A stretch of DNA of 64,000 nucleotides from an uncultured Pseudomonadota bacterium (GTDB taxonomy: Bacteria > Myxococcota_A > Polyangia > Fen-1088), in the NCBI GenBank assembly GCA_963774325.1, contig CAVZEF010000004.1:222958-286957 (forward strand), given 5' to 3'. The notes beneath the pieces are model-generated. The model was not told where the DNA came from, made no database searches, and was given only the letters and a program-made list of their open reading frames with translations. Positions 23,556 through 57,755 of this stretch are shown here, piece after piece (within the stretch, counting starts at the first letter, position 1; each line of letters opens with the position of its first letter). Both the position numbers and the translations under genes were made by a program.

Positions 23556-24695
23556 ATGACCTGTCGGCGATCTTTGGTCTGTGCTACCCAATGGCGCATG
23601 ACTCAGCATCCACGACATGACGCTCGGACGGTGGGACGCTGGATGAGGTTCGGAGCGGCAATTCTTTTCGCGGTCTCGGGTTGCGCGGGGGCAGCAACGG
23701 GCTCGCCAGCGGCAAGCGGGGGCGCGAGCGGCTCCGGTGGCGCGAACGGAGCCGGAGGTGCGGCGGCGACTGGAGGCTCGGGGGCCGGCGGCCTTGCTGC
23801 TGGCGCAGGCGGAGCCGTGGCCGGAACCGGTGGCAACGCCCTGGACGCGGGCAGCGACGCGGGACTGGGCGCAAGGACGGATGGGGGCATGGGCGGTGCG
23901 GCAGGGTCGGGTGCCGGAGGAGGCGCCGGTGGGCTCGGTGGTGCCGCGGGAACGACCAACTGCGCCGGTCATGCGGTCGCTTTCAACGCGAACGTCCCCG
24001 GCAACAACGATCCGGCGATGGCGCGTGTGATGGTCGACTTCATGAACAGCGCCGACCTGCCGATCGGGAACGCCAACCGGACCATCGAGCTCTGGGCGTT
24101 CGTCAGGACCTCGAGCTGGGTAGGCGACGCCAACACGCTGTTCTTCTACGGCACCAACAATCGCGTCGCCGACGGGTTCGGTCTCGACTTCGGCGGGGTC
24201 CCGGGAACCATCGATCCGTTCACGAACGCGATCTTCGACAACGACAATCAGCCGAGCGGGCTCGGCACCTCCAGCGACCAGTGGGCGCACTTCGCCATGA
24301 CGTGGGACGGCACCACCGTTCGGGCATTCGTCAACGGGGTGGAGAAGGCGAGCAAAACCTCGACCGTCGCACAGAAGACGCTGATGACGGGGCGTACGCC
24401 GCTGACGATCGGAGGCTATGCCCCCGCATTCTTCAACGGCTACATCGATGAGCTCCGGGTCTGGAACGTGGCCCGCGCGGCGGCCGACATCGCCCGCACG
24501 ATGCATACGACGCTGGCCGGCAGCGAGCCGGGACTGGTCGGCTACTGGAAGTTCGACGAGAGCAGCGGCACCACCGCCGCCGATTCCACGTCCGCCGCCG
24601 GTCATACGCCGCACCCGGGCGTGTTGATGGCGAATAGCATCGGCAACTTGCCGGCATTCGTTGTCTCGACGGCGCCGATCAGCTGTATTCCATGA
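23556..24695 (+). CDS. LamG/concanavalin-like domain lipoprotein
   Basis: AVSG-C lipobox, linker, RTIELW, WAHFAMTWDG...FVNG, FNGYIDELRVWN, GLVGYWKFDE; start may be later. Confidence 0.8.
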   Translation: MTCRRSLVCATQWRMTQHPRHDARTVGRWMRFGAAILFAVSGCAGAATGSPAASGGASGSGGANGAGGAAATGGSGAGGLAAGAGGAVAGTGGNALDAGSDAGLGARTDGGMGGAAGSGAGGGAGGLGGAAGTTNCAGHAVAFNANVPGNNDPAMARVMVDFMNSADLPIGNANRTIELWAFVRTSSWVGDANTLFFYGTNNRVADGFGLDFGGVPGTIDPFTNAIFDNDNQPSGLGTSSDQWAHFAMTWDGTTVRAFVNGVEKASKTSTVAQKTLMTGRTPLTIGGYAPAFFNGYIDELRVWNVARAAADIARTMHTTLAGSEPGLVGYWKFDESSGTTAADSTSAAGHTPHPGVLMANSIGNLPAFVVSTAPISCIP

Positions 24696-51019: not shown

Positions 51020-52063
51020 CTAGAAGACGTCGAAGTCGCCGGAGCTGATCTGATAGCTCATGGCTCTGTACTGGCGGTGAATCATGCCCTTTTGCGAATC
51101 GAAGATGGTCACGAACTTGTCGGCCGAGCTCTGAACGTAGTCAAAGACGTAGATGGGTCGATCCCCGGCCGCGGCCAGCAACTGGTCCAGCTGGTACGGC
51201 GTCACGACGTAGTATCGATGGCGATAGTCCGCGAGCAACTCTTTCGGGACGTGGGTGCCAATGTACGGGCCGCCCCCGGACTCGAACTTGTACAACGTAT
51301 AGTCCGGGACGTACAACGTCGACGCCTTGAGCTGTTTCAGGGCTTCGTCGTCGTCGAATTCGTCGAAGAGCCAGCGGCGCCGCGACTGCTCCAGATCCCG
51401 CTGGACGGCGGTCAGGTAGAGCGCCAGTTGCGGAGGTGTCCAATTGAGGAACCGCGCCCCCGCGTAGAGCGGAATCAGATTGTCGTCACCGTTGGCAATC
51501 GAGGTGTTCAGGGTGTTGCGATCGGGGTAAAGCTCGATCCGACAGAACGTCGTCGGCTCGAGCTGTCCGTGCTCATCCGGGATCGAACGCTCCAGCGTCA
51601 GGTAGAAATGGGTATTGACGTAGGAGACGTGCGCGTCGTTGGGCCTGGCGACATTCAGAGTCGAGTGGAACTTTTCGACGCCGCCGATCACGAAGTACGA
51701 ATAGCGGCCGCGATCCGCATACGCGGCTCGCTCGCGATAGGGCACGAACAGAACCTTCGTCAGCCGCCACACCCGTCGAACGTCGGCCTCCAGTGCCGCG
51801 CGCCACCGCTCGTCGTCGTCCTTGAGGAAAAATACCGTCTCGCTCTGCTTCAATGCCGCGAGCTCGGCCGGCGAAAACTGGCGTTGGCTCATGTGCTCTG
51901 TGTCGCCTGGGTCGTTCCAGCCATGTCGCGACATGAACGCCAGCGCGAAGCAGCCCGGACACACAACCAGCAGCACACCCAGAACACCGAACCGCACCCA
52001 ATGGCGAAGGCGGCCCGGGGATGGCGCAGTGGACATTCGAGGCATCTTGTCTCGCCGCATCAT
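51020..52063 (-). CDS. Hypothetical exported protein
   Basis: 347-aa ORF with hydrophobic N-terminal segment (VCPG-C) and coding-like codon usage. Confidence 0.7.
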   Translation of the reverse strand: MMRRDKMPRMSTAPSPGRLRHWVRFGVLGVLLVVCPGCFALAFMSRHGWNDPGDTEHMSQRQFSPAELAALKQSETVFFLKDDDERWRAALEADVRRVWRLTKVLFVPYRERAAYADRGRYSYFVIGGVEKFHSTLNVARPNDAHVSYVNTHFYLTLERSIPDEHGQLEPTTFCRIELYPDRNTLNTSIANGDDNLIPLYAGARFLNWTPPQLALYLTAVQRDLEQSRRRWLFDEFDDDEALKQLKASTLYVPDYTLYKFESGGGPYIGTHVPKELLADYRHRYYVVTPYQLDQLLAAAGDRPIYVFDYVQSSADKFVTIFDSQKGMIHRQYRAMSYQISSGDFDVF

Positions 52064-52191: not shown

Positions 52192-53580
52192 TCAAAACAA
52201 GGGTGGGCTCGCCAGCGTCGCGAGCTCGAGCGCCTGCTGCGCGAACCAATCGCCCGCCGCGGGATCGACGATCCCACCCCACTCGGGATCGGTGGTCGAT
52301 CCGGAGACGCCGCGATTGCACGAACCGTCCGACTCGCCGGGAATCTTGATCCAGAGCTCGGCGTCGGCGAGCGGGATGCCGGTCGCCGCCGTCGGCCGCG
52401 GCCCCACGCCCCGACCGGGCGGGTTGCACCAGTTCTGCGCGTCCGGGTAGATCACCGCCGGCGTCCAGGGCCCCTGGCCGTTGCGGCTGGTGTCGATCAC
52501 GAAGTGCGTCGTCGCCGTCGCGCCGCCCATGAGTGCTGCCAATCCCGCGGTCACGCCCGCTGCAAAGTCGGGCGTGTAATTCACGGTGCTGTAGTTGGTG
52601 GCCGGGTCGTATTGGCTCGGGCAATAGTCGAAGTGACCGGCCGCCCAGGGCGCGCCCGCTGTCGCTGCGGTGATGCAGTCCGAGACCCACGTCCCGAACT
52701 GAGCATTTTGATCGGTCGGCTGATAGTTGGACACGTTGAGGAAGAATCCCTGGGCGCGCTGAACACCCGCGGTCACCAGCCGAAACGCCGCATCACCGGG
52801 GCTCAGCCAGGCGCTGTGCGTACCGTCGAGATAGACAGCCGTGCGCGGCGCCTTGGCCCCGATGCTGTCGACGGCGTAGTTGAGCTGCGCATAGCGCTCG
52901 CTCGGGCTGGCGCCCGGCGCGGCGACGACGTTGCCTTGCGCGTCGGTGATCGTCGGCTGGCACGAATCCGCCGCGCCGAAGATGGTCTTGTTGTACGGGA
53001 TGATGCCCAGGCTGTCCGGCTCGAGGATCACCACGGCTTTCCCGTCTCCGATGCCGCGCGCAAAGCCGTCGATCCAGGCCTCATACGCGACCGTGTCGAC
53101 GGCGCCGCCCGCCGAGAAGCCCGCGCAGTCACGAAACGGGACGTTGTACGCGACCAGCACCGGCACCCGTCGTTCCTGGGACGCCGCCCGCATGGTGTTG
53201 CGCACCCCCCGCTCGACCTCGACGGGTGAGCCCGAGGTGAACCACACCGCTTGTGGTATCGCCTCCATCGTTGCCAGACGGCGCGCATCCGCGAGGCGCC
53301 GTGCGCGAAGCAGCTCGACGAGCTGCGTCTCCGCGCCGGCGTCCGGCGGGCGCACGAAGAAGCGCGTGTCGGGCGCCAGACCGCGCGGGTCGCCGCACGA
53401 GGACTGCGATGTCGATTGCCCGTCCGTCGAGGTGAGCGCGGCGGTGCGCTGCCCCTGCGTTTCGATCGCCGTCGGGTCACCGCCGCAGGCGCCGATCCCG
53501 CATGCGACCAGCGCCGACAACGCCGTGGGAAAACGCCCTGCTACCTTTGTCCTCGCCCGACTCTCGTTGTTCATGTCCAT
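52192..53580 (-). CDS. GH6 cellulase lipoprotein (catalytic residues intact)
   Basis: GAGGAG RBS, GIGA-C lipobox, VAYNVPFRDC, ILEPDSL, YLDGTHS, IDTSRNG, WCNPPGRG, WIKIPGESDGSC. Confidence 0.92.
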   Translation of the reverse strand: MDMNNESRARTKVAGRFPTALSALVACGIGACGGDPTAIETQGQRTAALTSTDGQSTSQSSCGDPRGLAPDTRFFVRPPDAGAETQLVELLRARRLADARRLATMEAIPQAVWFTSGSPVEVERGVRNTMRAASQERRVPVLVAYNVPFRDCAGFSAGGAVDTVAYEAWIDGFARGIGDGKAVVILEPDSLGIIPYNKTIFGAADSCQPTITDAQGNVVAAPGASPSERYAQLNYAVDSIGAKAPRTAVYLDGTHSAWLSPGDAAFRLVTAGVQRAQGFFLNVSNYQPTDQNAQFGTWVSDCITAATAGAPWAAGHFDYCPSQYDPATNYSTVNYTPDFAAGVTAGLAALMGGATATTHFVIDTSRNGQGPWTPAVIYPDAQNWCNPPGRGVGPRPTAATGIPLADAELWIKIPGESDGSCNRGVSGSTTDPEWGGIVDPAAGDWFAQQALELATLASPPLF

Positions 53581-53633
53581 GGGTCTCCTCGTTTTCGTTT
53601 CCCCTCGCGGGATTGCGAAGCGAGCAGACGAAC

Positions 53634-53649
53634 AGCAACGAACGGACCA
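53634..53649 (-). promoter_or_regulatory. Putative sigma54 -24/-12 promoter of the GH6 gene
   Basis: Minus strand TGGTCCGTTCGTTGCT (GG-N10-GC, TTGCT), about 54 nt upstream of the ATG. Confidence 0.65.
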
Positions 53650-53711
53650 ACGCCGAGACGGCGGGATCGCGGTCATTCATGCCGCTACCGGCACCCGAAT
53701 CGGTGTCGGCC

Positions 53712-53739
53712 GACGTCTCGGACGTCCGCCGCGGACGTC
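53712..53739. promoter_or_regulatory. Three GACGTC palindromes, candidate enhancer for the adjacent activator
   Basis: GACGTC at 53712, 53721 and 53734, 63-90 bp upstream of the -24 element. Confidence 0.5.
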
Positions 53740-53764
53740 CACTCGGTCGCCGCGTGCCGGACCG

Positions 53765-56287
53765 CTACTTCTTCACGAGGGATGTCGGCGCGCTCGCGTC
53801 GATATCGAGAGGCGGGTTTGCGTTGCGGGCCAGCTCCAGGGCTTGATCCGGGAACCATTCGCCGATCGGTTCGCCGCTGCTCGGGAGGACACGCCCCCAG
53901 AGCGGATCGAACTGGTTCCGCGAGTCGCCCGCGATACCCCACGGGTTGTAGCGGCTGTAGTCCCAGGCCCGTGCCCCGCCGGCGATGTCACAGGATGCGT
54001 TGCAGATCCCAGGCATCTCTGCCCAGAGGTAGGCGTCGACCAGCGGCACGCCCGTGCTGGGCGTGGGAGGAAGGCCAACCCCGCGGCCGGGCGGCATGCA
54101 CCAGGCCCCGTAGTGCAGCACCTCGATGACCGGCGGCGGCTGATTGTACGGCGCGTGCCCGTAAACGCTGACGTCGAGCGGGCCGCGCCCATTGCGGTTC
54201 GTGTTGATGACGAAGTGGGTGAGCGCGTCGGTCGACGGCGGGTGAGCGGCCCGATCCACGTGCTCGACGTACCAGGCCTCCACCTTGGCCCAATCGGCTT
54301 CTTCGATCGGGGCGCTCGGTTCGGGTTCGCGCTCGTAGTGGGGCTGTCTGGGGCAATCTGCATAGCGGTTCGCCCCGGCGGGGGCCGAGGGCGCCGTGCG
54401 CACGTAGTAGATGCACTTCGCGATCGCGGTGCCGTACTGGATCGAGCGCCGCGTGGCCTGGAAGTTGCCGACGTTCAGGAAAAATCCCGCGGTTCGGCCC
54501 ACGCCGGCGCGCACCAGCCGATAGGCCGCGTCGCCGATCGGCAGCCAATCACTGTGTGTCCCGTCGAGATAAACTTCCGCGTTCGGGGCCTTGGCGGCGA
54601 GGACGTCGACGGCGTAGTTGAGCTGCAGGTAGCGATCCTCCGGCGTCGCGCCGGGAGAAGGGACTCGCCTGCCATCGGGACGCGCCTGCATCGGTTTGCA
54701 CTCGTCCTCCCCTCCGTTCAACCACCTCCCGTGGGGCATGAGACCGAGCCCGTTCGGTTCGAGCAGGACGATGACCGGCTCGTTACCGATTCCAGCGACG
54801 AACCCATCGATCCAGGCTTTGTAGGCCGCGGTATCGACCGCCCCCATGATCTCGTATCCGGCGCAGTTGCGAAATGGGCGCTGGGACGCCACCAGGACCG
54901 GCATCCGCCCTCTGCGTTCCGCTCGGGTGATGACCTCGCCGACCTGCGCGCGCACCTGCTCGGGCGAGCCGCTCACGAACCAGATCCCCGCCGGCGTGGC
55001 AACCATCGCGCTCAGCAGCGCGGCGTCGCGTGCGTCGTTGGCTTTCCGGAGGCTCGCGATCTGCGCGACCGCGCCCGGCGGCGGATCGGAGCTCAGGAAC
55101 CGCGTGTTCGGATCGAGCCGGTGGATCCGGCGCGCGGGCTGCCGCGCGACCGGGGGAGCGGCGGGGGCCGCGGCCTTCCGCACGGCCACGACCGCCACGG
55201 CCAACACCGCGACGAGCAATCCGGCGCCGAGCAACGCGCGGGAACGAAGGCGCCCGCTCGGCGCACGGGGCGTCGATGCGCGATTCTCAGCAGCCGGGCC
55301 GATGCGCATCGAACCGCTCGCCGATGCCGCGGCCTCGTGGTCATCACCCTCTGCTACCAACGTGGAGATCCTGTCGAAGCGGGCTCGTCCGGAATCCTCG
55401 GGCGGCGGCGGCCAGACCTCGCGGCGCGCGAACGGCGCCAGCGCGCGGCCCAGGGCCTCCGCCGATGAAGGTCGCAGCGCGAGATCCGAAGCCAGTACGC
55501 AGTCGACGATCTCTGCGAGGCCCGCGGGCAGGTCCGGCCGCACCGACGCGATCGGAACGGCTGCATGCGTGGCGATGTGATGCAGGATCGCGTTCTGCGA
55601 CCCGCCCGGGTGCGGCCGTTGCTGCGACACCAGCTCGTAGAAGATCGCGCCCAGCGCGTAGATGTCCGCCCGCGCATCGACCGTCTTTTCGCCGCGCGCC
55701 TGCTCCGGCGACATGTATACGACCGTGCCGATGAGCGACCCGGTGCGCGTTGCCGCGCTCGCTTCTTCCAGCGCTTGCAGCTTCGCCACGCCGAAGTCGA
55801 GGACCTTGACCAGATCGGTGCCGTCGTCGCGCCGGCTCACGAACAGGTTCTGCGGCTTGAGATCGCGGTGGACGATGTCGGCGGCGTGAGCCGCCGCGAC
55901 CCCGCGACAAGCCTGCAGGATGAGATCGGCCGCGCGTGTGACCGGCAGGCGGCCCTCGCGCTCCAGCAACGCCGCCAGGCTCTCACCGACCAGGTACTCC
56001 ATCACGATGTAAGGTGTGCCGTCGTCGGCGATGCCGAAGTCGACCGCCGCCGCGACGTTCTCGTTCTCGAGCGCGCCCGCTGCTTCGGCCTCGCGCTGAA
56101 ACCGCGCGAGGATGTCGCGACGTTCGGCGAGCTCCTGGCGCAGCAGCTTGATCGCGAAGCGCCGGTGCACGACCGTGTGCAGCGCTTCGTACACGAGGCC
56201 CATTCCGCCGCTGGCGAGCAGCCGGACGATGCGGTACTTCCCGCCGATGATTGCGCCGATCCGGCTCGTCTCCGCCAGGGCCTTCAT
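53765..56287 (-). CDS. Hanks-type Ser/Thr kinase - TM - degenerate GH6 domain fusion
   Basis: Kinase LASGGMG, AIK, HRDLKPQN, DFG, MSPEQ, DIYALG; TM LLGAGLLVAVLAVAVVAV; GH6 fold with PFRNC, EPNGL and PGICNASC. Confidence 0.92.
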   Translation of the reverse strand: MKALAETSRIGAIIGGKYRIVRLLASGGMGLVYEALHTVVHRRFAIKLLRQELAERRDILARFQREAEAAGALENENVAAAVDFGIADDGTPYIVMEYLVGESLAALLEREGRLPVTRAADLILQACRGVAAAHAADIVHRDLKPQNLFVSRRDDGTDLVKVLDFGVAKLQALEEASAATRTGSLIGTVVYMSPEQARGEKTVDARADIYALGAIFYELVSQQRPHPGGSQNAILHHIATHAAVPIASVRPDLPAGLAEIVDCVLASDLALRPSSAEALGRALAPFARREVWPPPPEDSGRARFDRISTLVAEGDDHEAAASASGSMRIGPAAENRASTPRAPSGRLRSRALLGAGLLVAVLAVAVVAVRKAAAPAAPPVARQPARRIHRLDPNTRFLSSDPPPGAVAQIASLRKANDARDAALLSAMVATPAGIWFVSGSPEQVRAQVGEVITRAERRGRMPVLVASQRPFRNCAGYEIMGAVDTAAYKAWIDGFVAGIGNEPVIVLLEPNGLGLMPHGRWLNGGEDECKPMQARPDGRRVPSPGATPEDRYLQLNYAVDVLAAKAPNAEVYLDGTHSDWLPIGDAAYRLVRAGVGRTAGFFLNVGNFQATRRSIQYGTAIAKCIYYVRTAPSAPAGANRYADCPRQPHYEREPEPSAPIEEADWAKVEAWYVEHVDRAAHPPSTDALTHFVINTNRNGRGPLDVSVYGHAPYNQPPPVIEVLHYGAWCMPPGRGVGLPPTPSTGVPLVDAYLWAEMPGICNASCDIAGGARAWDYSRYNPWGIAGDSRNQFDPLWGRVLPSSGEPIGEWFPDQALELARNANPPLDIDASAPTSLVKK

Positions 56288-57657
56288 CGGCCCTTGTCCC
56301 CGTCGCTGCGCAGGCTGTCGAGGTCGACGCCCTGCCCCTCCATGAGGCGATAGGCGCGCTGCCGGCTGATGCCGAGAACCGCCGCCGCGCGCGCGACGTT
56401 TCCGCCCGCGGCCCGCAGGGCCGAGATCAGCACGGGCAGCTGCATCGGTTCGGTTGCAGCGGAAACCGGCGGTGACCTCTCCGGCGTCTGGGCGCTGGCC
56501 TGCACAGGCGCAGCGGCCACGCTGGATCTTTCGGTCATGCGTTCGGGCAAATGCTGGGCCGTGAGAGTGACGCCCGATCCGTGCACCGCCATGAGCCGCC
56601 GCGCGAGCAACGCGAGCTCGCGCACGTTGAAGGGCCAGTCGTAGATGCACAGCCGCTCAGCGAGATCACTCTCGAAGGCGGGCACCCGATCGGGAGCGGC
56701 CGCCTCCAGCAAGCGCGCGAACAGCGGCAGGATGTCCTCCCGCCTTTGCCGCAGCGGCGGCAGGCTGACCGTGAGCCCGTCGAGCCGCGCGAACAAGTCG
56801 CTGCGGAAGCGTCCGGCGCGAACGGCGTCCATCAACGATTGCTGGCCGGCGACCACGACGCGAACATCGATCGGCACGGGCCGCGCCTCGCCGAGCGGTT
56901 GCACCTCGTGCTCCTCGAGCACGCGCAGCAGCTTGGCCTGCAACGGCATTGGCAGGTCGGAGACCTCGTCGAGCAGCAACGTTCCCCGGTCGGCGCTGCG
57001 GAAGAAGCCCGGGCTCGCCCGATCGGCGCCCGTGAAAGCGCCGCGGCGATAGCCAAACAGCTCCGCCTCCGCGAGGGCTTCGGGGAGCGCCGCGCAATTG
57101 ACGGCGATGAACGAGCCCTGGCGTCCGCTCCAGCGATGGAGGGCGTCGGCGACGCGCTCCTTCCCGGTACCGGTCTCACCCTCGATGACCACCGGCAGAT
57201 CGGTGACCGCCACGCGTCGCAGGGGCGCGAGCGCACCGATGAGCGCTTCGCCGCCCCAGAAGCCAGGCACGATCTCGACCACGTCGCCGGGAGCGGCGGT
57301 GACCACGCCGATCCAGCCGCCGAGCCGCAGCACGTCCTGCGGCGCGAGGGGCGCAAGCGGGATCTGGCGACCATTGACCCGGACGCCGTTCCGGCTGCCG
57401 AGGTCCACGATGGTCGTCACCGCTCCGGCACCCGGGCGCAGAACCGCATGCCGTCGCGAAACATCGTGTCCTCCCAGCTGAACGGCGCAGCCGGGATCTC
57501 TTCCCAGCGTGGTCTCGCCGTCGCGGTCCGATTTCAGCGCGACCGCCGGGACGCCGCTGTGCGGGTACCGCCAGGCGATCGAGAGCGCGTGCGTGGCTGC
57601 CGCCGTGGGCCCCGAGACCGCCTGGGTGATCGTCGTCGTGCCGCCCCCGTCGCTCAT
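56284..57657 (-). CDS. FHA-domain sigma54 enhancer-binding protein
   Basis: FHA (LGRD, VSRRH, GSRNG), GETGTGKE, GAFTGA, LLDEV, WPFNVREL, Fis-type HTH; stop overlaps the kinase ATG (ATGA). Confidence 0.93.
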   Translation of the reverse strand: MSDGGGTTTITQAVSGPTAAATHALSIAWRYPHSGVPAVALKSDRDGETTLGRDPGCAVQLGGHDVSRRHAVLRPGAGAVTTIVDLGSRNGVRVNGRQIPLAPLAPQDVLRLGGWIGVVTAAPGDVVEIVPGFWGGEALIGALAPLRRVAVTDLPVVIEGETGTGKERVADALHRWSGRQGSFIAVNCAALPEALAEAELFGYRRGAFTGADRASPGFFRSADRGTLLLDEVSDLPMPLQAKLLRVLEEHEVQPLGEARPVPIDVRVVVAGQQSLMDAVRAGRFRSDLFARLDGLTVSLPPLRQRREDILPLFARLLEAAAPDRVPAFESDLAERLCIYDWPFNVRELALLARRLMAVHGSGVTLTAQHLPERMTERSSVAAAPVQASAQTPERSPPVSAATEPMQLPVLISALRAAGGNVARAAAVLGISRQRAYRLMEGQGVDLDSLRSDGDKGR

Positions 57658-57755
57658 GCCCAACCGCCTTGATACCACGGTGCGGCCGCGCCGCTCAAAG
57701 GACGCCGGCGAGCCGATGCTATACTCGAGTCGTGTCCGCCCGCAGCACCGACCCC

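What the first reader, a model, noticed from the sequence alone, without database searches (positions are those of the whole stretch)
53634..53739. sigma54 promoter with triple GACGTC enhancer in front of the active GH6 gene
Seen: minus-strand TGGTCCGTTCGTTGCT with correct GG-N10-GC spacing, and three GACGTC palindromes 63-90 bp upstream (two as GGACGTCC). Known: EBPs bind repeated upstream sites and activate sigma54 promoters. Inference: this is the output element of the adjacent FHA-EBP, and the motif could reveal a wider CAZyme regulon.
Basis: partly seen in the sequence, partly recalled or inferred. Interest (0 to 1): 0.72.

Follow-up and report, generated by a model that had tools for sequence, protein, structure and literature searches.

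The report
Sigma-54 promoter and enhancer for cellulase gene
The short DNA stretch in front of this soil myxobacterium's cellulase gene is very likely a real sigma-54 promoter with its upstream activator-binding sites, because the same layout recurs beside the same activator gene in dozens of related genomes, where it also precedes other cellulase genes.

Summary
On the minus strand lie TGGTCCGTTCGTTGCT (53649-53634, GG-N10-GC), two GGACGTCC palindromes (53740-53733, 53727-53720) and a third GACGTC (53717-53712). All sit in the 185-bp gap between a Ser/Thr kinase with a dead GH6 domain and an intact GH6 lipoprotein gene.

Evidence:
- The two palindromes are the only GGACGTCC pair within 40 bp in the 8.57-Mb genome.
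- In 20 loci from relatives that carry the orthologous FHA-sigma54 activator, GGACGTCC is 12-fold enriched. It comes in tandems spaced 11-13 bp.
- In those loci, 84% of copies have a correctly oriented -24/-12 site 30-200 bp away (about 0.75% expected by chance).
- Alignments conserve only the palindromes and TGGYCC-N5-TTGCT.
- Palindrome-to-promoter distances keep helical phase.
- Tandem sites co-occur with the activator ortholog across 89 genomes (Fisher p = 7e-9).

Downstream genes in relatives include GH6 and CBM4-GH9 cellulases. In this genome the GH6 gene is the only detectable target.

Refinements: the site is GGACGTCC, not GACGTC. The third copy is off-phase and doubtful. A conserved 5' leader stem-loop follows the promoter.

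No transcript data could be obtained, so the start site and activator binding remain inferred. This is a new cis-element and regulon of a known kind.

The parts
53733..53740 (.). UAS site 1: palindrome GGACGTCC. Its centre is 89 bp upstream of the -24 GG, about -113 from the predicted start.
   Evidence: Sequence. It belongs to the only GGACGTCC pair within 40 bp in the genome. The motif is conserved at orthologous loci.
53720..53727 (.). UAS site 2: palindrome GGACGTCC, 13 bp from site 1. Its centre is 76 bp upstream of the -24 GG, about -100 from the predicted start.
   Evidence: The closest relative, L215, has the same 13-bp spacing. Across 20 ortholog loci the spacings are 11-13 bp in 15 of 19 neighbouring pairs.
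53712..53717 (.). Third GACGTC (context AGACGTCG). Doubtful or degenerate site, 9 bp from site 2.
   Evidence: GACGTC alone occurs about once per kb. The 9-bp spacing does not fit the 11-13 bp ladder.
53644..53649 (-). -24 element TGGTCC (GG at 53648/53647).
   Evidence: TGG and CC are invariant in all 12 cassettes. TGG(C/T)CC is kept in six of the eight GH6 promoters from relatives, and TGG in all eight.
53634..53638 (-). -12 element TTGCT (GC at 53636/53635).
   Evidence: TTGCT is invariant in the eight GH6 promoters, while the 5-nt spacer varies.
53621..53625 (-). Predicted transcription start (about 53623), giving a leader of about 43 nt.
   Evidence: Inferred from the usual -12 to +1 distance of sigma-54 promoters (established knowledge). 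Not measured.
53603..53620 (-). Conserved leader stem-loop CTTCGC-AATCCC-GCGAGG, starting about +4.
   Evidence: It folds at -12.1 kcal/mol. It stands at a fixed 15 nt after TTGCT in 12 or more cassettes. Three of 6 pairs covary and 93% of cells are paired; 0 of 500 shuffles reach the covariation score. Part of the stem was fixed by the search pattern.
52192..53580 (-). Target gene: GH6 lipoprotein with intact RDC and EPD motifs and a lipobox (LVAC).
   Evidence: Pfam Glyco_hydro_6, E = 3.5e-64. Translation.
53765..56290 (-). Ser/Thr kinase with one transmembrane segment and a C-terminal GH6-like domain whose signature Asp residues are Asn (RNC, EPN).
   Evidence: Pfam Pkinase and Glyco_hydro_6. 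Translation.
56284..57678 (-). FHA / sigma-54 AAA+ / HTH_8 enhancer-binding protein. It has GAFTGA and Walker A/B motifs, and its stop overlaps the kinase start.
   Evidence: Pfam. Translation. Orthologs at 58-74% identity occur in about 39 of 89 genomes of the order.

Best explanation
The gap between the kinase gene and the GH6 gene holds a sigma-54-dependent promoter: -24 TGGTCC, -12 TTGCT, start near 53623. Its upstream activating sequence is two GGACGTCC palindromes 13 bp apart, centred about 100 and 113 bp upstream of the start.

Proposed mechanism:
1. The adjacent FHA-domain enhancer-binding protein (EBP) binds these palindromes through its C-terminal Fis-type HTH.
2. It is switched on through its FHA domain by the co-transcribed Ser/Thr kinase, whose periplasmic dead-GH6 domain presumably senses cellulose fragments.
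3. It oligomerises on the same face of the helix as the promoter, loops the DNA, and uses ATP to open the sigma-54 closed complex.
4. The GH6 lipoprotein gene is then transcribed with a roughly 43-nt leader that begins with a conserved stem-loop.

Shown here by sequence and comparison: the elements, their uniqueness in the genome, their conservation, their phasing, and their co-occurrence with the EBP ortholog. Inferred: EBP binding, sigma-54 dependence, the start site, and the signal path from kinase to FHA domain.
For: 1. The genome has rpoN. The neighbouring EBP has FHA, a sigma-54 AAA+ domain with GAFTGA, and HTH_8.
2. The site has exact -24/-12 geometry. A canonical sigma-54 promoter for rtcB in the same window (TGGCACGTTCGCTGCA) shows that the genome uses this promoter class.
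3. No sigma-70-like promoter and no terminator-like site are found in 53400-53900.
4. These two palindromes are the only GGACGTCC pair within 40 bp in 8.57 Mb, and the only copies with a sigma-54-like site nearby.
5. Phylogenetic footprint: in alignments of window, L215, L002 and L233, only GGACGTCCG..CGGAC and CTGGYCC..TC.TTGCT are conserved. The 60-75 bp between them is not. In eight GH6 promoters from eight genomes, TGG and TTGCT never vary while the N5 spacer does.
6. In 20 loci with the EBP ortholog (191 kb) there are 49 GGACGTCC copies: 256 per Mb against 21 per Mb in this genome. Forty-one of them have an oriented sigma-54-like site 30-200 bp away (about 0.75% expected). Neighbour spacings are 11 (8 times), 12 (5 times) and 13 (2 times).
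7. Distances from palindrome to -24 keep helical phase: Rayleigh R = 0.76, p = 0.003 at 10.5 bp for 9 loci excluding the window, with the maximum of the period scan at 10.5.
8. Across the 89 genomes of the order, tandem GGACGTCC co-occurs with the EBP ortholog (30/9/8/42, odds ratio 17.5, Fisher p = 7e-9).
9. The orthologous EBPs share an invariant HTH (GGNVARAAAxLGISRQRAYRLMEGQ). A paralogous module in this genome has a different tandem repeat (TGTCCGGGCAC twice, 11 bp apart) upstream of its own sigma-54 site.
Against: - There is no transcript or binding data.
- The sigma-54 matrix was written from memory and is approximate.
- The -24 element TGGTCC departs from the TGGCAC consensus at two positions, and 173 genomic sites score as well or better.
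- The genome-level and locus-level statistics are not corrected for shared ancestry. Several loci are close relatives.
- Eight genomes have tandem sites without a detected ortholog and nine have the ortholog without a strict tandem. The genomes are incomplete MAGs.
- In the window alone, the two palindromes can also form a strong RNA hairpin 25 nt after the kinase stop.
- About 9 of 20 distal tandem sites in relatives lack a good -24/-12 site.
Confidence: 0.78

Rival explanations
1. The GGACGTCC repeat is an RNA hairpin that terminates or stabilises the EBP-kinase transcript, not a protein-binding DNA site.
For: In the window, GGACGUCCGCGGCGGACGUCC folds into a 10-pair stem with a 3-nt loop, starting 25 nt after the kinase stop.
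Against: - There is no U-tract and no terminator call.
- The fold of the region is no better than shuffles (z = -0.66).
- In orthologs the second copy is often GGACAC, or lies 22-33 bp away, so the hairpin is not conserved while the palindrome is.
- The same tandems occur between divergent promoters and far from any kinase gene.
Confidence: 0.07
2. The promoter is real, but the GGACGTCC sites are bound by a regulator other than the adjacent FHA-EBP.
For: No binding data exist. Eight genomes have tandem sites but no detected EBP ortholog. Some distal tandems lack a clear -24/-12 site and sit next to a conserved AT-rich stretch.
Against: The EBP is the only DNA-binding protein consistently encoded beside the sites. 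Co-occurrence is strong (p = 7e-9). Position (46-180 bp upstream of the -24 GG; 76-108 bp in 11 of the 13 sites) and helical phasing fit an EBP.
Confidence: 0.1
3. Both motifs are chance matches. GH6 is transcribed from an unrecognised sigma-70-type promoter or by read-through.
For: The -24/-12 score is moderate, with 173 equal or better sites in the genome. Myxobacterial sigma-70 promoters are poorly captured by consensus scans.
Against: Both motifs, their order and their spacing are conserved across genera while flanking sequence diverges. The tandem is unique in the genome.
Confidence: 0.04

Closest known systems
NtrC/glnAp2-type sigma-54 promoters (enhancer about 100-140 bp upstream, tandem dimer sites on one helical face)
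   Same: GG-N10-GC core promoter. Two or more palindromic activator sites about 100 bp upstream. Helical-phase constraint. An AAA+ activator with GAFTGA and a Fis-type HTH.
   Different: The site is an 8-bp GC-rich palindrome (GGACGTCC) repeated every 11-13 bp, not a 17-bp dyad. The activator has an FHA domain instead of a receiver domain, so the input is presumably phosphothreonine from a Hanks-type kinase rather than a histidine kinase.
FHA-domain enhancer-binding proteins of Myxococcus xanthus (Jelsbak, Givskov and Kaiser 2005, listed in the references of PMC12288465; content from my own knowledge)
   Same: Same domain order (FHA, sigma-54 AAA+, HTH) in a myxobacterium with many Ser/Thr kinases. 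A link between Ser/Thr kinases and these proteins has been proposed.
   Different: Those proteins act in fruiting-body development, and to my knowledge no binding motif or polysaccharide-degradation target has been defined for them. Here a cis-motif and cellulase targets are predicted.
Nla28 and Nla6 EBP regulons of M. xanthus (PMC9765219; bioRxiv 10.1101/2021.11.28.470282)
   Same: Myxobacterial EBPs whose targets were found through short GC-rich palindromic or tandem sites upstream of -24/-12 promoters.
   Different: Different input domains, different motif, and starvation or development targets rather than cellulases.
RsgI/SigI polysaccharide biosensors of Clostridium thermocellum (named in earlier finding e1-5238755)
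   Same: An extracytoplasmic carbohydrate-active-enzyme-like module senses polysaccharide and switches on cellulase genes through an alternative sigma factor.
   Different: That is an anti-sigma/ECF-like mechanism, not a kinase, FHA-EBP and sigma-54 with a remote enhancer.

Membership tests
sigma-54 (-24/-12) promoter | GG and GC dinucleotides separated by exactly 10 bp, within a TGGCAC-N5-TTGCW-like context | tested here: met
   TGGTCCGTTCGTTGCT at 53649-53634. It matches 10 of the 12 consensus positions that are specified. Approximate matrix score is 13.3, against 18.4 for a perfect consensus.
sigma-54 (-24/-12) promoter | Intergenic position, oriented towards a gene at a workable distance | tested here: met
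   The -12 C at 53635 lies 55 nt upstream of ATG 53580, with a GAGGAG Shine-Dalgarno between. It sits inside a 185-bp gap.
sigma-54 (-24/-12) promoter | The genome encodes sigma-54 and a GAFTGA-bearing activator | tested here: met
   rpoN DNA-binding domain hit, E = 3.2e-64. The adjacent EBP has Sigma54_activat at E = 1.9e-56 and GAFTGA.
sigma-54 (-24/-12) promoter | Conservation of the -24 and -12 elements but not the spacer in orthologous promoters | tested here: met
   Eight GH6 promoters and 12 or more cassettes show this pattern.
sigma-54 (-24/-12) promoter | Transcription start about 11-13 nt after the GC, and dependence on rpoN | not testable with these tools
The organism is an uncultured MAG.
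bacterial enhancer (UAS) of an EBP | Repeated or palindromic sites roughly 70-200 bp upstream of the core promoter | tested here: met
   Two GGACGTCC copies centred 76 and 89 bp upstream of the -24 GG. In relatives the distances are 45-175 bp.
bacterial enhancer (UAS) of an EBP | Sites conserved with, and co-distributed with, the cognate EBP | tested here: met
   Forty-one of 49 palindromes in EBP-ortholog loci are paired with a promoter. Co-occurrence gives Fisher p = 7e-9. Not corrected for phylogeny.
bacterial enhancer (UAS) of an EBP | Face-of-helix dependence | tested here: met
   Rayleigh R = 0.76, p = 0.003 at a 10.5-bp period. The sample is small and the loci are partly related.
bacterial enhancer (UAS) of an EBP | Direct binding by the EBP's HTH | not testable with these tools
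   Needs EMSA or footprinting.

The most novel reading that the evidence does not exclude
The tandem-GGACGTCC/sigma-54 cassette marks a dedicated cellulase regulon in one family of uncultured soil Myxococcota. The regulon would include GH6, CBM4-GH9, a ~145-aa lipoprotein family without a Pfam match and other secreted proteins of unknown fold. A Ser/Thr kinase with a pseudo-cellulase sensor domain would drive it through an FHA-domain enhancer-binding protein. That would be the first polysaccharide-sensing route from a kinase through phosphothreonine to sigma-54. The cassette would be portable: it appears in front of different genes, in different orientations, and carries its own conserved 5' leader stem-loop.
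Probability: 0.5. Interest if true: 0.72.

Novelty: new member of a known kind. Interest (0 to 1): 0.55.

Why it matters
The finding supplies the output end of a proposed cellulose-sensing circuit: dead-GH6 kinase, then FHA-EBP, then sigma-54, then cellulase. That turns the circuit into something testable.

It provides three things:
- A defined 8-bp site that can be mutated.
- A defined promoter that can be fused to a reporter.
- A motif that already recovers GH6 and GH9 cellulase genes in related genomes.

No FHA-domain EBP has, to my knowledge, a defined binding motif or a carbohydrate-degradation regulon. The tandem 11-13 bp arrangement and the helical phasing also say something about how this EBP class assembles on DNA.

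Tried and rejected
- **Known RNA families.** Rfam gave no hit in 53450-53850.
- **Simple promoter and terminator scans.** None were found near the element or after the GH6 gene.
- **First metagenome pattern scan.** It returned mostly chance hits. Only 5 of 80 loci had TGG in the right place, and all 5 were in the exact-spacing class.
- **L009/L230 site.** I first dismissed TGGCACGCGATCTGCT there as coding. It later turned out to belong to a recurrent second promoter class directly after kinase genes.
- **Another site in the window.** TGGCGAGCCCGTTGCT at 23693 lies antisense inside a lipoprotein ORF and is rejected as chance.
- **Paralog module on C3.** Its candidate promoter lies inside an ORF, so I did not use it.
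- **Literature.** A search for GGACGTCC gave only primers and unrelated uses. Jelsbak et al. 2005 is not held.
- **Wider regulon in this genome.** None was found. The GH9 ortholog on C6 has only degenerate motifs.

Full report
**What is there**

All features lie on the minus strand.
- The kinase gene stops at 53765.
- GGACGTCC lies at 53740-53733 and again at 53727-53720.
- A third GACGTC lies at 53717-53712.
- TGGTCCGTTCGTTGCT lies at 53649-53634, with GG at 53648/47 and GC at 53636/35.
- The stem-loop CTTCGC-AATCCC-GCGAGG lies at 53620-53603.
- GAGGAG lies at 53590-53585, and the ATG of the next gene at 53580.

**Gene context**

Three co-directional genes flank the element.
- An enhancer-binding protein (EBP, 57678..56284) has FHA, sigma-54 AAA+ (GAFTGA, Walker A/B) and HTH_8 domains.
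- A Ser/Thr kinase (56290..53765) has a start that overlaps the EBP stop. It has one membrane segment and a C-terminal GH6-like domain. In that domain the two signature Asp residues are Asn (RNC and EPN).
- An intact GH6 lipoprotein gene (53580..52192) keeps RDC and EPD and has a lipobox.

The genome has rpoN. It holds roughly 55 or more EBP-like and about 100 kinase-like matches, as expected for a myxobacterium. The related contigs carry Myxococcales or Polyangiaceae MAG titles.

**Is it more than chance within this genome?**
- The loose pattern TGGNNNGNNNNTTGCW has 3 matches in the window against 0.70 expected.
- I wrote an approximate sigma-54 weight matrix from memory of the published consensus, so it is only a yardstick. 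The site scores 13.3. In 8.57 Mb, 173 sites on both strands score at least as well, which gives about 0.002 expected per 185-bp gap per strand.
- The rtcB promoter in the same window is canonical (TGGCACGTTCGCTGCA, score 15.5). It serves as an internal positive control.
- GGACGTCC occurs 183 times in the genome, an ordinary count for a palindrome of that composition. The only two copies within 40 bp of each other are the two here.
- Those two are also the only copies with an oriented sigma-54-like site 30-200 bp away.
- No sigma-70-like promoter and no terminator-like site were found in 53400-53900.

**Comparative evidence, first round**

Loci encoding relatives of the kinase showed a shared layout in L002, L003 and L004. 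A GGACGTCC lies 86-101 bp upstream of TTGG(T/C)CC-N5-TTGCT. The same leader stem-loop follows at a fixed distance, and the sequence between these elements is unrelated.

I then searched with a pattern that fixed only the -12 element and the stem-loop.
- In the 89 genomes of the order it found 9 cassettes, against 1 hit for the reversed control pattern.
- In metagenomes it found 5 more. All 5 were in the exact-spacing class, and all 5 had TGG at the -24 position, which the pattern did not require.
- All 12 core cassettes carry GGACGTCC upstream, usually as GCGGACGTCCGC, often with extra GGACAC half-sites.

**Comparative evidence, second round**

The EBP has clear orthologs (58-74% identity, against 57% or less for paralogs) in about 39 of the 89 genomes. 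I fetched 20 of these loci and scanned them without reference to the stem-loop.
- They hold 49 GGACGTCC copies in 191 kb. That is 256 per Mb, against 21 per Mb in this genome.
- The copies come mostly in tandems of two or three. Start-to-start spacings are 11 (8 times), 12 (5 times) and 13 (2 times), plus single cases of 24 and 30 and two of 33.
- Forty-one of the 49 have a sigma-54-like site (score 12 or more) 30-200 bp away and pointing away from them. About 0.75% would be expected by chance.

The closest relative, L215 (EBP 74% identical), has the window's layout exactly:
- a kinase with a dead GH6 domain;
- two GGACGTCC copies 13 bp apart;
- TGGTCCGGTCATTGCT;
- a GH6 gene 69% identical to the window's.

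Eight GH6 genes in eight genomes have such promoters. Six read TGG(C/T)CC-N5-TTGCT. One has TGGCGC and one, in front of a distant GH6-like gene, has TGGTAC. TGG and TTGCT never vary, while the five spacer bases vary freely.

A four-way alignment of the GH6-type gaps conserves only the palindrome block and the -24/-12 block.

**Phasing and co-occurrence**

The distances from palindrome centre to the -24 GG are 46, 76/89 (window), 77, 77, 87, 88, 88, 99, 101, 108, 108 and 180 bp.
- For nine non-redundant loci excluding the window, the Rayleigh statistic at 10.5 bp is R = 0.76, p = 0.003.
- The period scan peaks at 10.5.
- Some of these loci share ancestry, so the p-value is optimistic.

Strict tandems (GGACGTCC-N3-5-GGACGTCC) occur in 38 of the 89 genomes, and the reversed control in 7. 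Crossing these with the presence of the EBP ortholog gives 30/9/8/42: odds ratio 17.5, Fisher p = 7e-9. This is not corrected for phylogeny or MAG incompleteness.

**Specificity**

The orthologous EBPs share an invariant HTH, GGNVARAAAxLGISRQRAYRLMEGQ.

A paralogous module elsewhere in this genome (C5) has an FHA-EBP, a kinase and a TPR-like gene, followed by TGGTACGGTGGTTGCT. It carries a different tandem repeat, TGTCCGGGCAC twice at 11 bp, about 100 bp upstream. Same architecture with a different word is what paralog-specific enhancers would look like.

**Regulon**

In this genome, which is 78% complete, the GH6 gene is the only detectable target. The GH9 ortholog on C6 has only degenerate motifs.

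In relatives the cassette precedes several gene types:
- GH6 genes;
- a CBM4-Ig-GH9 cellulase in five genomes (Pfam GH9 E = 1.7e-97, CelD_N, CBM_4_9);
- a roughly 145-aa lipoprotein family with no Pfam match;
- a 709-aa protein with no Pfam match that looks to me like a clan GH-A hydrolase (by eye only);
- the gene directly after short kinase genes.

About 9 of 20 distal tandems lack a good -24/-12 site. Some of these sit next to a conserved AT-rich stretch, and one is a coding repeat.

**Rival reading: RNA hairpin**

In the window the two palindromes would fold as a strong RNA hairpin 25 nt after the kinase stop. It has no U-tract. The fold is not better than shuffles. The hairpin is not conserved in orthologs, whereas the DNA palindrome is. 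I therefore rank a terminator role as secondary at most.

**Mechanism proposed**

Steps 1-3 and 5 are inferred. The sequence elements in step 4 are shown.
1. Cellulose fragments bind the periplasmic dead-GH6 domain.
2. The kinase autophosphorylates on Thr.
3. The FHA domain of the EBP reads this, or the EBP itself is phosphorylated. The EBP then assembles on the tandem palindromes at about -100 and -113.
4. DNA looping brings the EBP to sigma-54 RNA polymerase bound at TGGTCC-N5-TTGCT. ATP hydrolysis opens the complex, and transcription starts near 53623.
5. The roughly 43-nt leader begins with a stem-loop that may stabilise the mRNA or bind a factor.

**Leader stem-loop**

The stem-loop shows covariation in 3 of 6 pairs, and 0 of 500 shuffles reach the score. 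The inner pairs were fixed by my search pattern, so only the outer pairs count as evidence.

**Verdict**

- the unit is GGACGTCC;
- the third copy is doubtful;
- the wider regulon is seen in relatives only.

This is a new cis-element and regulon for an uncharacterised FHA-EBP orthogroup. It is a known kind of system with an unusual input. Earlier findings on the kinase-pseudoenzyme module agree with this reading. A search of the scan's findings by words found nothing further.

Noticed in passing
window 53603-53620 (-): A conserved 5' leader stem-loop, CTTCGC-AATCCC-GCGAGG, starts about +4 from the predicted start. It stands at a fixed 15 nt after TTGCT in 12 or more cassettes and has a conserved loop, AAUC(A/C)C. 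The outer pairs covary (C-G, U-A, U-G). Its function is unknown; possibilities are mRNA stability or a factor-binding site.
   Followed up: partly
own genome C5:650900-655181 (outside the window): A paralogous module runs FHA-EBP, Ser/Thr kinase, TPR-like membrane protein, then TGGTACGGTGGTTGCT and a Gly-rich lipoprotein gene. About 100 bp upstream lies a different tandem repeat, TGTCCGGGCAC twice at 11-bp spacing.
   Followed up: partly
L235, L239, L240, L246, L252 (relatives G071, G073, G074, G061, G066): Tandem GGACGTCC plus TGGCGCG-N4-TTGCT precedes a secreted CBM4-Ig-GH9 cellulase, far from the EBP locus. The predicted start codon lies only 15-23 nt after the promoter element.
   Followed up: partly
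L216, L218, L221, L227, L229, L230, L233 (relatives): A second promoter class, TGGCA(C/T)-N5-(G/C)TGCT, lies directly after the kinase gene, with GGACGTCC tandems 120-160 bp upstream in six of the seven loci (none found in L221). A conserved Met-Arg start lies about 17-22 nt after the -12 element, so the mRNA would be nearly leaderless. In L230 the palindromes lie inside the kinase's C-terminal tail coding sequence.
   Followed up: no
window 53765-53800 versus L002, L003, L004 and L009: The window's kinase ends soon after the GH6-like domain. The orthologs carry an extra tail of about 80-110 residues ending in a conserved FDPxNPY(R/G). The window's intergenic UAS may derive from former tail-coding sequence.
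   Followed up: no
L004:7069-7529, L011, L237, L244 (relatives): A lipoprotein family of about 145 aa with no Pfam match (MNKMIF...GCS...) is the most frequent first gene behind the cassette in one genus. This genome has no homolog. Several regulon proteins share an unassigned C-terminal domain ending ...V.N(V/L)...(Y/K).
   Followed up: partly
own genome C6:903142-905363 (outside the window): The GH9 ortholog (62-72% identity, apparently frameshifted) has only degenerate GGACGCCC and GGACAC motifs and a weak TGGTGATCTTTTCGCG upstream. It is either a decayed or a weak regulon member.
   Followed up: no
window 51020-52063 (-): The 347-aa ORF after the GH6 gene has no Pfam match. It lies in a stretch of lower G+C (0.58-0.62, against about 0.69 elsewhere). 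No terminator-like site separates it from GH6.
   Followed up: no
window 23693-23708 (-): The sigma-54-like match TGGCGAGCCCGTTGCT lies antisense inside a plus-strand lipoprotein ORF. It is most likely chance.
   Followed up: yes
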